From NCBI GenBank assembly GCA_000004985.1, contig GG739274.1: DNA of 2,282 bases. One strand, written 5' to 3'. Positions within the stretch are counted from its first letter, which is position 1; every line of letters starts with the position of its first letter. The notes under the pieces are model-generated. The model had not been told where the DNA came from and did no database searches. It saw nothing but the letters and a program-made list of their open reading frames with translations. Of the stretch, positions 1 to 2,282 are shown piece after piece. This DNA is from Naegleria gruberi. Its lineage: Eukaryota. The position numbers were made by a program, and so were the translations under genes.

Positions 1-1
1 C

Positions 2-676
2 ATGAAAAAGTCTGTTCCAGATATGCCAGCAATTACCTTTTCTAATACCATTCAAATATGTTATTGGAGAAAGGTATTGGTTTCATCCTTGACAAGCATT
101 GTTGGAGAATCCATTGATAATAACGGAAATAAGATTTCAATACAATCTGGATTAGCAACACACCCGTCAGTTTCACAATTGAACTACATTACATTAGCTT
201 TGAAAACTGAATCCCCTACCGACAGGTTAATCTTTGACTTTTCAATACTTGAAATTGATAATGTCTCATCAGATAAGAGCCTCATATCAGTATTCTTTGA
301 TACCACTTTTCCTTTCTACTATTGTTCCTATTGGGATAATGCATGGAATCAGACAGTGGTTGGAGGTGCTTGTAACATTAATTACTCAGGAAAAAGTTCA
401 ATTGGCACCATCTCTGCATCAATTGAAAAGACTGGTCGATTTTCCATTATCCGTGATCCAGGAGAGGGAGGAGAGAGCTTTATCAGGAATAATTATGATT
501 TGTTTGCCCTATTTGCATTGTTGATTATTCCAATTGTGTGCATAATTATTGTATTGTTGGTAGCCATTTACTTGTTGAGAAAGAGAAAGATCAAAACCAA
601 CTTGGAAAATAATGATGTTGATATTGTGAATGTGCGTGAACCTAAACAAACACTTATCAGTAATCAACACTTTTAA
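2..676 (+). CDS. C-terminal portion (5'-truncated at the window edge) of a type I single-pass membrane glycoprotein of unrecognised family. The ectodomain carries 3 Cys and 3 N-glycosylation sequons. It is followed by a TM helix and a short basic/acidic cytoplasmic tail.
   Basis: Open frame of 224 codons running from the first full codon of the window to TAA at 674-676. Codon usage is yeast-like (TTG Leu, AGA Arg, CCA Pro). Sequons are N87-V-S, N116-Q-T and N127-Y-S. A hydrophobic stretch [26 protein letters not shown] (aa 167-192) is followed immediately by RKRKIK. The N-terminal residues in the window ([13 protein letters not shown]...) do not look like a signal peptide, so the ATG at 2-4 is probably internal and the gene continues upstream. 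AT-rich 3'-end signals follow the stop. Confidence 0.75.
500..577 (+). other. Predicted transmembrane helix of the 2..676 protein (aa 167-192), followed by an RKRK stop-transfer cluster at 578-589.
   Basis: 26 consecutive hydrophobic residues (L, F, A, I, V, one internal Cys) flanked by D166 upstream and RKRKIK downstream. This is the classic N-out/C-in topology signal. Confidence 0.6.
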
Positions 677-760
677 AAATATAAATCAAAATCATGTAAT
701 TAACAAATCCTTAATAAAAATAAACTGTTTTAGTAAAGTTCTTTGCAGTTATCATATTTT
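677..760 (+). terminator. Probable 3'-end formation/polyadenylation region for the 2..676 gene, with yeast-type AT-rich efficiency and positioning elements.
   Basis: Immediately after TAA come 'aaatataaatcaaaatcatgtaattaacaaatccttaataaaaataaactgtttt'. This contains ATATAAAT and AATAAAAATAAA motifs, which resemble yeast TATATA-type efficiency elements and A-rich positioning elements. The call rests on inference from sequence only. Confidence 0.35.
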
Positions 761-1051
761 TTAATTGTTGTTAGGAAATCAGTATAAAATAAAGGTTTCA
801 AAATTGTTCATTACTGCTGATATTTCTTTCCAAAAACCCATTCAATTTCAGGTTCTTTCAATGGTCCATAACTTTACAACAGCACCCAATATGGTAATCC
901 GAAAATCTGTCCAATTCAATCTTAATACCAACATAAGTATGGAAATAGGTATTGTGGATATTTGTCTAGAATAGTCAGTTGTTGCAACATCACTCGAAAT
1001 AAAACAATAACCAGATCATTAAGGCAATAGGAAAATACATGCTCTAATATC

Positions 1052-1077
1052 CCTCTCTCATTGAAAGGCCTCTCTCA
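1052..1077. repeat. Perfect 9-bp direct repeat CCTCTCTCA ... CCTCTCTCA (1052-1060 and 1069-1077) separated by 8 bp. It is a pyrimidine-rich candidate cis-element about 230-250 bp upstream of the small ORF at 1304.
   Basis: Read directly from the sequence: 'ccctctctcattgaaaggcctctctcaactg'. Function unknown. Confidence 0.5.
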
Positions 1078-1303
1078 ACTGTTCAAGATTAACCTTTCCA
1101 GCCGTAATTACTATTACCAAAAATAATCCGATGTATCAATTAGTACTGACCTATCAGCAAGAGCATTGATTTCTGCCGATTCTAATGCACAGTTGGTCCT
1201 ATTCATCAAACCATGTAGGCACTTATGATATTGGTTTAAATTGCAATGTGGTTACCATTCTGCATTTGTATGGAAGATGCTAAGTGATTGCTAAAATTTT
1301 TGA

Positions 1304-1459
1304 ATGCCAAAACAAATATCAGGCATTCTTGCAGCCTGGTTAACTTCAACTTTGGTGGGAACTATGTTGATTGTCTTGGTCAGCTTGATTAGTGCTTTGT
1401 GTTGCTACTTTATGTGTTGCTACAGAAAGAGAAAGAGACTCTCTCCTATGAACAGTTAA
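1304..1459 (+). CDS. Candidate small ORF (51 aa) encoding a single-pass hydrophobic micro-protein: MPKQISGILAAWLTSTLVGTMLIVLVSLISALCCYFMCCYRKRKRLSPMNS. It was not in the supplied ORF track, presumably because it falls below the length cutoff.
   Basis: An ATG at 1304 is preceded by an in-frame TGA (1301-1303), and the frame is open to TAA at 1457-1459. Codon usage matches the flanking genes (Leu TTG x5, Arg AGA x3, AAG Lys). The stretch is a local GC-richer, G/T-rich island in otherwise AT-rich intergenic DNA. The ORF predicts a ~30-residue TM segment followed by a CCYFMCCY and RKRKR cluster, a palmitoylation-like Cys motif plus stop-transfer. Two points argue against it. The ATG context is poor (T at -3). 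The ORF ends 1 nt from the stop of the convergent gene, leaving no room for a non-overlapping 3' UTR. Confidence 0.35.
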   Translation: MPKQISGILAAWLTSTLVGTMLIVLVSLISALCCYFMCCYRKRKRLSPMNS

Positions 1460-1460
1460 T

Positions 1461-2153
1461 TTATTTCAAATACATGCCATATTCTTCATCATATTCTGCA
1501 ATGTACTGATCTATTTCATCTTCTTCGTCATCTTCCAAATTTTCACCACTAGTTGTCTTTAGTAAGGTACTTGCTTTGGATTTTTCCAAACTGATAGATG
1601 GTTTTGAATTCTTCTTCTTTTTCTTTTTAATTTCCGCACCTTGGGATGTTTCATCAATAGGTTCTGTAGGATTTAAGTAAGAATCGATAATTGGGAAAAT
1701 TTCCTTAGAGGTGATCAGATCAATTCTCTTATTCTTATCCCAAAATACATGTTCATCTCTATAGATCAAACTCTGAATACGATGTTGAGGCAAATCTTCC
1801 TTCAATTCACTATTCTCATATTCACTGTAAGAGATGAACACATCTCCTTCAAAACGATCCTTATAGATCATGGCCAAATTTTGCATGACATCTGCCAATG
1901 ATTCATCCCAATTCAAACGATCAATCACCTCTTTGCATGTTTGAAAACGTTCCTTTTTCTGATTCATCAATTCTTCTTCCTCCTTTGAAAGTGGAGAAGA
2001 GCCACTACTTTTCTTGTAATATTCCATCATGGAAGGAGAGGAGGAGAGATGACTCGGAGAGGAAGAAATTACATCAGAATTTGCATTGGAAGATGATCTA
2101 GATCTTGACGATGAAGAAGAAGGTTGAATAAAACGAGGAATACTTTGGGACAT
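1461..2153 (-). CDS. Complete 230-aa protein with a Ser-rich low-complexity N-terminus and a central MJ1316/DUF504 (UPF0248)-like domain. A KKKKKK/NLS-like basic patch and an acidic D/E/Y-rich C-terminal tail follow. Function uncharacterised; the domain family is predicted to bind RNA 2',3'-cyclic phosphate ends.
   Basis: 693-nt open frame from ATG (complement of 2151-2153, context gaaaATGTCC with A at -3) to TAA (complement of 1461-1463). Codon usage is yeast-like. The central block KEVIDRLNWDE...MIYKDRFEGDVFISYSEY...LPQHRIQSLIYRDEHVFWDKNKRIDLI matches my recollection of the MJ1316 motif pattern (V..R..WD ... Y.DRF.g ... IP.HRI ... g.V.W.R.kRID). This is a recall-based assignment and has not been checked by HMM search. 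Confidence 0.85.
   Translation of the reverse strand: MSQSIPRFIQPSSSSSRSRSSSNANSDVISSSPSHLSSSPSMMEYYKKSSGSSPLSKEEEELMNQKKERFQTCKEVIDRLNWDESLADVMQNLAMIYKDRFEGDVFISYSEYENSELKEDLPQHRIQSLIYRDEHVFWDKNKRIDLITSKEIFPIIDSYLNPTEPIDETSQGAEIKKKKKKNSKPSISLEKSKASTLLKTTSGENLEDDEEDEIDQYIAEYDEEYGMYLK
1611..1628 (-). other. Hexa-lysine run (KKKKKK, aa 176-181) encoded by mixed AAA/AAG codons within a basic patch KKKKKKNSKPSISLEKSK. This is a candidate classical nuclear localisation signal.
   Basis: The plus strand reads 'cttcttctttttcttttt', whose reverse complement is aaaaagaaaaagaagaag. The basic cluster is followed by an acidic tail. The NLS call is an inference. Confidence 0.3.
1713..1958 (-). other. MJ1316/DUF504-like domain (approximately aa 66-147 of the minus-strand protein).
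   Basis: Motif similarity as described for the CDS. The domain sits between two low-complexity regions, the S-rich aa 11-42 and the K-rich/acidic aa 175-226. Confidence 0.45.
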
Positions 2154-2282
2154 TTTCTACTATTAACTTGTTGATATCGGAAGGATGAGAATTTTCTATA
2201 CAAAATACTAATACTAATAATAATACTATAAATTACAAAATATAATACACTCTAATGTTACAAAATATATTGATAACTAAAA
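2154..2282 (-). promoter_or_regulatory. 5' UTR and core promoter region of the minus-strand gene. It is AT-rich, with TATA-like elements about 70-90 bp upstream of the ATG and a short ATACTA hexamer tandem repeat (2205-2228).
   Basis: The sequence upstream of the ATG on the minus strand is very AT-rich. TATAAAT lies at 2227-2233 on the plus strand, with TATA-like strings (tatagta, tatatttt) on the minus strand. The A-rich start context 'agtagaaaATG' is typical of yeast. The region extends beyond the window edge. Confidence 0.35.

What the first reader, a model, noticed from the sequence alone, without database searches (positions are those of the whole stretch)
1304..1459. Unannotated 51-codon ORF encoding a putative single-TM Cys-rich micro-protein, with yeast-optimal codons
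The intergenic spacer is AT-rich, but the 1320-1445 stretch is a compositional island. Read in frame from the ATG at 1304, it gives an almost purely hydrophobic peptide, ILAAWLTSTLVGTMLIVLVSLISALCCYFMCCY, followed by RKRKR. The codon choices are the preferred TTG/AGA/AAG codons used by the two flanking genes, which argues against a random reading frame. The architecture resembles small fungal proteolipids of the Pmp1/Pmp2 type: a TM helix followed by a basic juxtamembrane tail. The CCxxxCC cluster at the cytosolic membrane edge is a typical S-acylation site. Automated annotation routinely misses proteins under 100 aa.
Basis: partly seen in the sequence, partly recalled or inferred. Interest (0 to 1): 0.55.

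Follow-up and report, generated by a model that had tools for sequence, protein, structure and literature searches.

The report
Unannotated membrane mini-ORF in Naegleria spacer
The 51-codon reading frame is real and would encode a membrane-spanning helix, but it lies in the amoeba Naegleria gruberi rather than a yeast, has no relatives outside that species, and differs at both ends between the two known copies of the locus, so it is more likely a truncated or emerging reading frame than an established gene.

Summary
The ORF at 1304-1459 (+) exists exactly as described. It encodes 51 aa: a 34-residue hydrophobic stretch, then CCYFMCC, then RKRKR.

The window is not yeast. It is a complete 2,282-bp Naegleria gruberi scaffold, a divergent second copy of a locus on a 413-kb scaffold.

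ORF length is unremarkable: 50% of shuffled spacers give an ORF of 51 aa or more. The hydrophobic helix is not chance composition (P about 0.002-0.007).

Only one relative exists among billions of proteins, an 85-aa ORF on a contig that carries the other N. gruberi allele. The two share only the TM/Cys/RKR core, which has 2 substitutions, both non-synonymous. Upstream of the core, a 142-bp block here is unalignable with 121 bp there and carries three in-frame stops. The other allele's ATG is TTG here. The tail differs by a 6-bp deletion and a 1-bp frameshifting deletion.

Three other Naegleria loci lack the ORF and have a different downstream neighbour. Codon evidence is inconclusive. There is no Pmp1/2, CYSTM or other family match.

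Best reading: a species-restricted, haplotype-polymorphic proto-gene or truncated allele. I put a functional microprotein at about 25%. Interest is low.

The parts
1304..1459 (+). The 51-codon ORF, stop codon included. It is unannotated.
   Evidence: The product is absent from the protein collections except for the related 85-aa P0001.
1322..1423 (+). Hydrophobic segment, residues 7-40 (GILAAW...FMCCY), predicted to be a single transmembrane helix. This is the part shared with the other haplotype.
   Evidence: Kyte-Doolittle up to 2.53. Hessa-scale sum -1.9 to -2.6 kcal/mol. AlphaFold2 helix 3-46, pLDDT 82. High-identity alignment to L001 begins at 1320. The two substitutions, at 1347 (S15L) and 1391 (S30G), are both non-synonymous.
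1400..1420 (+). CCYFMCC cluster (C33, C34, C38, C39) at the C-terminal end of the helix. It is a candidate S-acylation site only if the C-terminus is cytosolic.
   Evidence: Sequence, identical in L001. Acylation is inference and was not tested.
1424..1456 (+). Polybasic tail RKRKR followed by LSPMNS. It is not conserved: the other haplotype lacks 6 bp (1424-1429) and 1 bp (1441), giving RKRLLL and then a stop.
1178..1319 (+). Haplotype-specific AT-rich block that replaces the 121-bp block encoding residues 5-45 of the 85-aa ORF in L001. It contains the fortuitous ATG at 1304 and in-frame stops at 1226-1228, 1292-1294 and 1301-1303.
   Evidence: No blastn similarity. Global alignment z = 0.16 against shuffles. 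Frame translation.
1166..1168 (+). TTG at the position of the ATG start codon of the 85-aa ORF in the other haplotype, in the same frame as the 51-codon ORF.
   Evidence: Alignment. Translations (window ...ARALISA..., L001 ...ERVMISA...).
716..1177 (.). Hypervariable spacer. It is 78% identical with 19 gap openings (716-1108) and 89% identical (1133-1177) to the other haplotype, although both flanking genes are about 99-99.7% identical.
2..676 (+). 3' part of the upstream gene: the C-terminal 224 residues of a 600-aa N. gruberi-only single-pass membrane protein. It is annotated on this scaffold as a 224-aa 'predicted protein', NAEGRDRAFT_76943. It is not a paralogue of the mini-ORF.
   Evidence: BLASTP against the mini-ORF and P0001 gives nothing beyond RKRK.
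1461..2153 (-). Convergent gene for a 230-aa MJ1316-domain protein (NAEGRDRAFT_54938). Its stop codon lies 1 bp from the mini-ORF's stop, and an AATAAA on the minus strand (1465-1460) overlaps its stop.
   Evidence: Pfam PF04457, E = 4.4e-7. 100% identity to the N. gruberi protein. Sequence.

Best explanation
The ORF lies in Naegleria gruberi, in the hypervariable spacer between two convergent genes. The window is a 2.3-kb alternative-haplotype scaffold.

The ORF is the transmembrane / Cys-cluster / basic-tail portion of a species-restricted small ORF that is longer (85 codons) in the other haplotype. In this haplotype three things differ:
- The 5' part is replaced by unrelated AT-rich DNA with three in-frame stops.
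- The other allele's ATG is TTG.
- Translation could start only at a fortuitous ATG six codons before the helix.

The most likely status is therefore an evolutionarily unstable proto-gene, or a truncated (possibly null) allele. It is probably not an established, conserved microprotein gene. Which haplotype is ancestral cannot be decided without an outgroup.

If it is translated (all inferred):
- The helix ends 11 residues from the C-terminus, so it would leave the ribosome only after termination and insert post-translationally.
- The +5 tail would keep the C-terminus cytosolic (positive-inside rule), leaving a 6-residue N-terminus outside.
- The four cysteines would then sit at the cytosolic leaflet, where S-acylation is possible.
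For: **Organism and haplotig status.**
- Both flanking ORFs are 100% identical to N. gruberi proteins recorded on a 2,282-bp contig.
- Second copies lie on a 413-kb scaffold, differing by 1 aa of 230 and 2 aa of 224.
- L001's MJ1316 product is identical to the main-scaffold copy.

**Restricted distribution.**
- There is one word-sharing candidate in 5.8 billion proteins.
- A full HMMER search of 1.84 billion representatives found only the query itself and one repeat-inflated prokaryotic match.
- Metagenome and viral scans found nothing.
- N. lovaniensis, N. fowleri and a third Naegleria contig have a different, same-strand neighbour downstream of MJ1316. They give no tblastn hit and have no convergent TM mini-ORF.

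**Instability between the two haplotypes.**
- The 142-bp and 121-bp blocks are unalignable.
- The other allele's ATG is TTG here, and three in-frame stops follow.
- Both core substitutions are non-synonymous, and there are 6-bp and 1-bp deletions in the tail.
- There are 5 differences in 140 bp of ORF against 2 in 693 bp of the neighbouring CDS (Fisher P = 0.002).

**Signs that the locus is more than noise.**
- Hydropathy P = 0.007 and 0.002.
- L001 has a 131-codon open frame (P = 0.009) and an ATG-ORF of at least 85 aa (P = 0.05).
- The L001-specific block has its best CAI in the ORF frame.
Against: - No transcript, ribosome-footprint or peptide data could be consulted, so expression of either allele is unknown.
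- With only two substitutions the dN/dS argument has almost no power. P(2 of 2 non-synonymous) is 0.56 under neutrality and 0.22 at omega 0.3. S to L and S to G are tolerable in a TM helix.
- The parametric codon test favours coding (CAI 0.64-0.70 against a null of 0.47-0.52, P about 0.001-0.002).
- The conserved core (TM, CC..CC, RKR) could be all that function requires, in which case the 51-aa form could be a working allele.
- That L001 equals the main-scaffold allele is inferred from protein identity of the neighbouring gene. It was not checked against that scaffold's DNA, which could not be retrieved.
Confidence: 0.45

Rival explanations
1. It is a genuine, functional, N. gruberi-specific microprotein gene. 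It would encode a single-pass, probably S-acylated membrane peptide whose essential part is the TM/Cys/basic core. The 51-aa and 85-aa forms would be two working alleles that differ in a dispensable or diversifying N-terminal ectodomain.
For: - The TM-like character is not explained by composition (P = 0.002-0.007).
- The core stays in frame in both haplotypes, and both end shortly after the basic cluster.
- The parametric codon test gives P about 0.001-0.002.
- The helix is modelled confidently.
- The charge distribution fits N-out/C-in in both forms.
- Small ORFs are routinely missed by annotation (established knowledge).
Against: - The start codon and N-terminus are not conserved, and the tail is frameshifted.
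- The ORF region changes faster than the neighbouring CDS.
- Both substitutions are non-synonymous.
- There is no homologue in any other Naegleria locus or in any database searched.
- The empirical codon control is not exceeded.
- Its stop is 1 bp from the convergent gene's stop, and no AATAAA follows on the + strand until about 2127.
- There is no expression evidence.
Confidence: 0.25
2. It is a pure chance ORF in both haplotypes. The 1320-1460 stretch would simply be the better-conserved 3' flank (UTR or termination region) of the MJ1316 gene, and its T/G-rich antisense strand happens to read as a hydrophobic peptide.
For: - High identity with the other haplotype starts at 1320 and runs continuously into the MJ1316 gene.
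- ORF length is at chance level.
- About 1% of spacers would give such a hydrophobic ORF by chance, which means many cases per genome.
- CAI is within the spacer background, and a reverse-strand frame scores as high.
- T-rich non-genic DNA is known to encode TM-like peptides (PMC7005711, PMC10063215).
Against: - The hydropathy is rare even given the local dinucleotide composition (P = 0.002).
- The other haplotype keeps the same frame open for 131 codons (P = 0.009).
- The AATAAA overlapping the MJ1316 stop suggests a short 3' UTR that may not reach the TM core.
- The 3' flanks of MJ1316 orthologues show no obvious resemblance to this stretch by eye (no similarity search was run on the flanks).
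Confidence: 0.25
3. The ORF is the last exon of a larger spliced gene whose upstream exon(s) lie in the spacer or in the upstream gene.
For: - Acceptor-like sites (ATATCAG|G at 1322 and TTCTTGCAG|C at 1334) resemble Naegleria acceptors seen in L002 and L003.
- Six in-frame GT-AG models can be drawn, for example ATG 861, donor 937, acceptor 1322.
- A conserved TACTGAC...CAG motif lies at 1143-1157.
Against: - The donor at 937 (GTATGG) is GCATGG in L001, and the putative exon 1 carries 15-bp and 7-bp indels between haplotypes.
- No donor in the upstream gene joins in frame.
- In L001 the ORF is contiguous and needs no splicing.
- The models are as numerous as chance would give.
Confidence: 0.05

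Closest known systems
De novo or proto-gene ORFs with transmembrane potential arising from thymine-rich non-genic DNA (described in budding yeast; PMC7005711, PMC10063215)
   Same: It is species-restricted, has no homologues and lies in an intergenic spacer. The coding strand is T-rich (T 0.37). The product is little more than a hydrophobic helix. The ORF boundaries are unstable between close genomes.
   Different: The organism is a heterolobosean amoeba. Translation and fitness effects are untested here. A non-coding ancestral state cannot be shown because the locus is not syntenic in the other Naegleria genomes. The T/G-rich composition alone does not reproduce the hydropathy (P = 0.002).
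   Same: Size class of about 40-50 aa, with one TM helix followed by a basic cytosolic tail.
   Different: There is no sequence similarity (no Pfam hit at E <= 1). The organism is not a fungus. This ORF has a CCxxxCC cluster, which from memory Pmp1/2 do not have. No link to a P-type ATPase has been shown.
The TM, palmitoylated di-cysteine and polybasic module of orthoreovirus p10 FAST proteins (Pfam PF07204)
   Same: The same order of elements: TM helix, juxtamembrane cysteines, polybasic cluster. It was the top Pfam hit, though sub-threshold (E = 0.066, 13.6 bits).
   Different: The score is below the 21.4-bit cut-off. There is no ectodomain fusion loop. The similarity is compositional rather than evidence of homology.
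Short membrane proteins inserted post-translationally (the tail-anchored class)
   Same: There is no signal peptide, and the single TM ends 11 residues from the C-terminus, so insertion must follow termination.
   Different: Tail-anchored proteins carry a functional cytosolic N-terminal domain and translocate a short C-terminus. Here the N-terminus is 6 residues and the +5 C-terminal tail argues for the opposite orientation.

Membership tests
Pmp1/Pmp2 proteolipids (Pfam PMP1_2) | Sequence match to the family profile | tested here: not met
   hmmscan against Pfam-A at E <= 1 lists four sub-threshold families, and PMP1_2 is not among them.
Pmp1/Pmp2 proteolipids (Pfam PMP1_2) | Occurrence in Saccharomycetes, next to yeast genes | tested here: not met
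   Both flanking genes are 100% identical to Naegleria gruberi proteins.
Pmp1/Pmp2 proteolipids (Pfam PMP1_2) | Architecture of about 40-50 aa with one TM helix and a basic C-terminal tail | tested here: met
Pmp1/Pmp2 proteolipids (Pfam PMP1_2) | Association with, or regulation of, the plasma-membrane H+-ATPase | not testable with these tools
   This needs biochemistry.
CYSTM cysteine-rich tail-anchored TM module | Match to the CYSTM profile, with a Cys-rich C-terminal TM at the extreme C-terminus | tested here: not met
   There is no CYSTM hit at E <= 1. The helix is followed by an 11-residue basic tail.
Orthoreovirus p10 FAST protein (PF07204) | Score at or above the Pfam gathering threshold | tested here: not met
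   13.6 bits against a 21.4-bit cut-off, E = 0.066, covering only the TM, Cys and basic region.
   The ATG and first 6 codons are absent from the other haplotype. The tail is frameshifted, and 2 of 2 core substitutions are non-synonymous. The ORF is absent from three other Naegleria loci. The TM core frame itself is intact in both haplotypes.
   P about 0.001-0.002 against a base-composition null. However, 4 of 27 stop-free spacer stretches and one reverse-strand frame score as high.
   No RNA-seq, EST or Ribo-seq data were accessible.
De novo-type TM proto-gene from T-rich DNA | Lineage-restricted with no detectable homologues | tested here: met
De novo-type TM proto-gene from T-rich DNA | Orthologous sequence that is non-coding in outgroups | tested here: inconclusive
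   The outgroup loci are not syntenic downstream of MJ1316, so no orthologous sequence could be compared.
S-acylated juxtamembrane cysteine motif | Cysteines at the cytosolic end of a TM helix | tested here: inconclusive
   The cysteines (C33, C34, C38, C39) lie next to the basic tail. The cytosolic orientation rests only on the positive-inside rule, and acylation itself cannot be tested here.

The most novel reading that the evidence does not exclude
The spacer could be an old, balanced, idiomorph-like polymorphism in N. gruberi. A small surface membrane protein would keep a conserved TM/Cys/basic anchor, while its ectodomain is haplotype-specific: 40 residues in one haplotype and essentially absent in the other. 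The polymorphism would be maintained because the two forms do different things, for example in self/non-self or mating-type-like recognition. This would explain why about 600 bp between two genes that are about 99-99.7% identical is 78% identical in part and unalignable in part.
Probability: 0.04. Interest if true: 0.7.

Novelty: new member of a known kind. Interest (0 to 1): 0.2.

Why it matters
If the ORF is translated, it would add an orphan, haplotype-polymorphic membrane microprotein to a deeply branching eukaryote whose small-protein complement is essentially unexplored. It would also be an example outside yeast of TM-type ORFs appearing or decaying in intergenic DNA.

As it stands, the main practical value is corrective:
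- The window is a Naegleria haplotig, not yeast.
- The annotated 224-aa neighbour is a truncated model of a 600-aa protein.
- The mini-ORF fails its own conservation test.

The unusually divergent spacer between near-identical genes is a small curiosity for anyone studying heterozygosity and recombination in Naegleria.

Tried and rejected
- **Yeast origin.** Rejected: both flanking genes are N. gruberi.
- **Pfam family membership of the 51-aa and 85-aa products.** Only sub-threshold TM-composition hits.
- **PDB sequence search.** Only alpha-sarcoglycan's TM at E = 0.53.
- **Deep HMMER search with the 85-aa relative.** The only other hit was an 825-aa prokaryotic repeat protein. A 26-residue match at 50% identity is counted six times because of the repeats, so I judged it chance.
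- **Paralogy with the upstream TM protein.** Nothing beyond RKRK.
- **Alternative terminal exon of the upstream gene.** No in-frame donor.
- **Spliced gene models within the spacer.** Six can be drawn, but none is supported by conservation.
- **Orthologue by synteny in N. lovaniensis, N. fowleri and contig L005.** The neighbour is a different gene and there is no mini-ORF.
- **Relocated or inverted copy of the divergent block.** None found; global alignment is at chance level.
- **Metagenome and viral scans.** A JGI-type metagenome scan with the MJ1316 protein found nothing. The CCYFMCCY coding pattern gave 8 chance hits with stops around them. The viral contig scan was negative.
- **Rfam and tRNA scans of the window.** Nothing near the threshold.
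- **Bacterial-type promoter and terminator scan.** Uninformative for a eukaryote.
- **Retrieving the 413-kb scaffold DNA or the window's own record.** Not on record.
- **Literature on the metagenome project PRJEB11402.** No paper found.

Full report
**1.

The + strand carries an ATG at 1304 and a TAA at 1457-1459. The product is MPKQISGILAAWLTSTLVGTMLIVLVSLISALCCYFMCCYRKRKRLSPMNS. An in-frame TGA at 1301-1303 closes the frame immediately upstream.

Residues 7-40 are hydrophobic:
- The Kyte-Doolittle 19-residue mean peaks at 2.53.
- A simple sum on the Hessa scale gives -1.9 to -2.6 kcal/mol for residues 17-41. The scale values are from my memory of Hessa et al. 2005.
- AlphaFold2 draws one helix over residues 3-46 with mean pLDDT 82.

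The "compositional island" is modest. GC is 0.40 there, against 0.21-0.38 elsewhere in the spacer. The strand is T- and G-rich.

**2. Chance**

Length is not evidence. Half of the dinucleotide shuffles of the 784-bp spacer contain an ATG-ORF of at least 51 aa.

Hydrophobicity is unusual. Only 0.7% of shuffles give an ORF of at least 30 aa with an equally hydrophobic 19-mer. Shuffling only the core, which keeps its own dinucleotide content, reaches the observed value in frame in 0.2% of trials.

A rate near 1% per spacer still predicts on the order of a hundred such ORFs by chance in a genome with roughly 15,000 genes (gene number from my own knowledge).

**3. The organism is not a yeast**

- The convergent 230-aa ORF (1461-2153, minus strand) has an MJ1316 domain. 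It is 100% identical to a "predicted protein" of Naegleria gruberi recorded on a 2,282-bp contig.
- The upstream 224-aa ORF (2-676) is 100% identical to another N. gruberi predicted protein on the same contig and has no other homologue. The window is therefore that whole scaffold.
- Cluster look-up shows a second copy of both genes, with adjacent gene numbers (NAEGRDRAFT_68340 and 68341), on a 413,107-bp scaffold.
- The MJ1316 copy there differs by one residue (D to E). The other gene is 600 aa long, and the window's 224 residues are its C-terminus with two differences.
- The window is therefore best read as a small alternative-haplotype scaffold (haplotig).

**4. The only relative**

A word-indexed search of 5.8 billion proteins found one candidate, P0001, which is 85 aa and comes from an ENA metagenome contig, L001. 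A full HMMER search of 1.84 billion representatives with P0001 found only itself and an 825-aa prokaryotic repeat protein. That score comes from one weak 26-residue match repeated six times, which I treat as chance.

L001's MJ1316 product is identical to the main-scaffold N. gruberi protein. L001 therefore most probably represents the other allele. That scaffold's DNA could not be fetched to confirm this.

**5. Comparison of the two haplotypes**

| Window region | Comparison with L001 |
|---|---|
| 1320-2158 | 98.6% identical |
| 716-1108 | 78% identical, 19 gap openings |
| 1133-1177 | 89% identical |
| 1178-1319 (142 bp) | No detectable similarity to L001 474-594 (121 bp); global alignment z = 0.16 |

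- In L001 the 121-bp block encodes residues 5-45 of the 85-aa ORF. That ORF's ATG corresponds to TTG at window 1166, in the same frame as the 51-codon ORF.
- In the window this frame is interrupted by stops at 1226, 1292 and 1301.
- Inside the shared core there are two substitutions, both non-synonymous (S15L and S30G).
- The tail differs by a 6-bp deletion (which removes KR), a 1-bp deletion (a frameshift) and one substitution. The result is RKRKRLSPMNS here and RKRLLL in L001.
- The ORF region carries 5 differences in 140 bp, against 2 in the 693-bp MJ1316 CDS (Fisher P = 0.002).
- Two substitutions give almost no power for dN/dS. P(both non-synonymous) is 0.56 under neutrality, 0.22 at omega 0.3 and 0.05 at omega 0.1.

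**6. Signs that the locus is not pure noise**

- In L001 the frame through the TM core is open for 131 codons (P = 0.009 in shuffles). The ATG-ORF of 85 aa has P = 0.05.
- The L001-specific block is GC-richer. Its codon adaptation index (CAI) is highest in the ORF frame among its six frames.

**7. Codon usage**

It fails for Thr (ACT 3 of 3) and Val (GTC 2 of 3), which are the less-used codons of the flanking genes.

A CAI test against a base-composition null gives P about 0.001-0.002. The empirical control removes the signal. Stop-free stretches of the same spacers span CAI 0.47-0.77, with 4 of 27 at or above 0.69. A reverse-strand frame of the ORF's own DNA scores 0.715, against 0.699 for the ORF. 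The codon evidence is inconclusive.

**8. Other species**

The MJ1316 orthologues of N. lovaniensis, N. fowleri and a third Naegleria contig (58-63% identical by tblastn) are followed by a different, same-strand, multi-exon gene. There is no tblastn hit for the mini-ORF or for the upstream protein. There is no convergent TM mini-ORF either.

Both the 600-aa protein and the mini-ORF are therefore restricted to N. gruberi. No orthologous non-coding sequence is available for comparison.

**9. Alternatives examined**

- **Splicing.** Naegleria introns seen in the neighbouring orthologous gene read G|GTAWGT...YAG|G and are about 100-140 nt long. Acceptor-like sites exist at 1322 and 1334, and six in-frame models can be drawn. 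The only upstream donor (937) is not conserved in L001, and its putative exon carries frame-breaking indels. No donor in the upstream gene fits.
- **MJ1316 3' UTR.** High identity runs continuously from the gene into the ORF. However, an AATAAA on the minus strand overlaps the MJ1316 stop codon, which hints at a short UTR. This remains unresolved.
- **Other scans.** Rfam and tRNA scans found nothing. Pfam, PDB, metagenome and viral searches gave no family.

**10. Interpretation**

The most economical reading is a species-restricted small ORF with unstable ends. It is 85 codons long in one haplotype. In this haplotype only the TM/Cys/basic part remains, behind a fortuitous ATG. In other words it is a proto-gene or a truncated allele.

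| Reading | Probability |
|---|---|
| Proto-gene or truncated allele | about 0.45 |
| Functional microprotein in this haplotype | about 0.25 |
| Pure chance ORF in the 3' flank of MJ1316 | about 0.25 |
| Exon of a larger spliced gene | about 0.05 |

If the ORF is translated, the following mechanism is inferred:
- Insertion would be post-translational, because the helix ends 11 residues before the stop.
- The orientation would be N-out/C-in by the positive-inside rule (+5 tail).
- The four cysteines would sit at the cytosolic leaflet as candidate S-acylation sites.

None of these steps is shown.

**11. Comparison with known families**

The ORF shares architecture, but not sequence, with Pmp1/2 proteolipids and with the TM, dicysteine and polybasic module of reovirus p10 FAST proteins (13.6 bits against a 21.4-bit cut-off). 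It is a member of neither.

Its closest conceptual relatives are the TM-encoding proto-genes that arise from T-rich non-genic DNA in yeasts (PMC7005711, PMC10063215).

**12. Verdict**

The physical chemistry holds. The organism, the codon argument and the family do not, and conservation largely fails.
- Novelty: at most a new member of a known kind.
- Interest: 0.2.

Noticed in passing
window 1-2282: The window is an entire 2,282-bp Naegleria gruberi scaffold. It duplicates, at about 99-99.7% identity in the genes, a locus on a 413,107-bp scaffold (genes NAEGRDRAFT_68340 and 68341), so it is most likely an unmerged alternative haplotype.
   Followed up: partly
window 2-676: The annotated 224-aa 'predicted protein' NAEGRDRAFT_76943 is a truncated model. 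It corresponds to residues 377-600 of the 600-aa main-scaffold protein (P0014), cut by the scaffold end and started at an internal Met. That protein is itself an N. gruberi-only orphan with a C-terminal TM helix followed by RKRK.
   Followed up: partly
window 716-1319 (L001 1-594): The spacer between two almost identical genes is strikingly divergent between the haplotypes. It is 78% identical with 19 gap openings, and a 142-bp versus 121-bp block has no similarity at all. Synonymous sites of the adjacent CDS show only 1 change. The cause is unexplained; it could be an old polymorphism, local hypermutability, or conversion of the genes but not the spacer.
   Followed up: partly
L002 6799-8680, L003 6826-8888, L005 2560-3961: Synteny breaks downstream of the MJ1316 gene. 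In N. lovaniensis, N. fowleri and a third Naegleria contig the neighbour is a conserved same-strand multi-exon gene with an N-terminal TM segment (405-409 aa). In N. gruberi the neighbour is the convergent 600-aa orphan.
   Followed up: no
window 1143-1157 (L001 439-453): A TACTGACC(T/A)ATCAG motif, which resembles a branch point plus acceptor, is conserved in both haplotypes just upstream of the ATG (TTG here) of the longer ORF. The few Naegleria introns I inspected showed no such branch-point consensus, so its meaning is unknown.
   Followed up: no
window 1460-1465 (minus strand): An AATAAA hexamer overlaps the TAA stop codon of the MJ1316 gene. The upstream gene has AATAAA-like hexamers about 40-50 nt after its stop (about 713-724). 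The mini-ORF has none downstream on its strand until about 2127.
   Followed up: no
window 1424-1438 and 581-593: The basic tails of both membrane ORFs are encoded by the same purine repeat (AGAAAGAGAAAGA). The 6-bp haplotype indel in the mini-ORF lies inside it, as replication slippage would produce.
   Followed up: no
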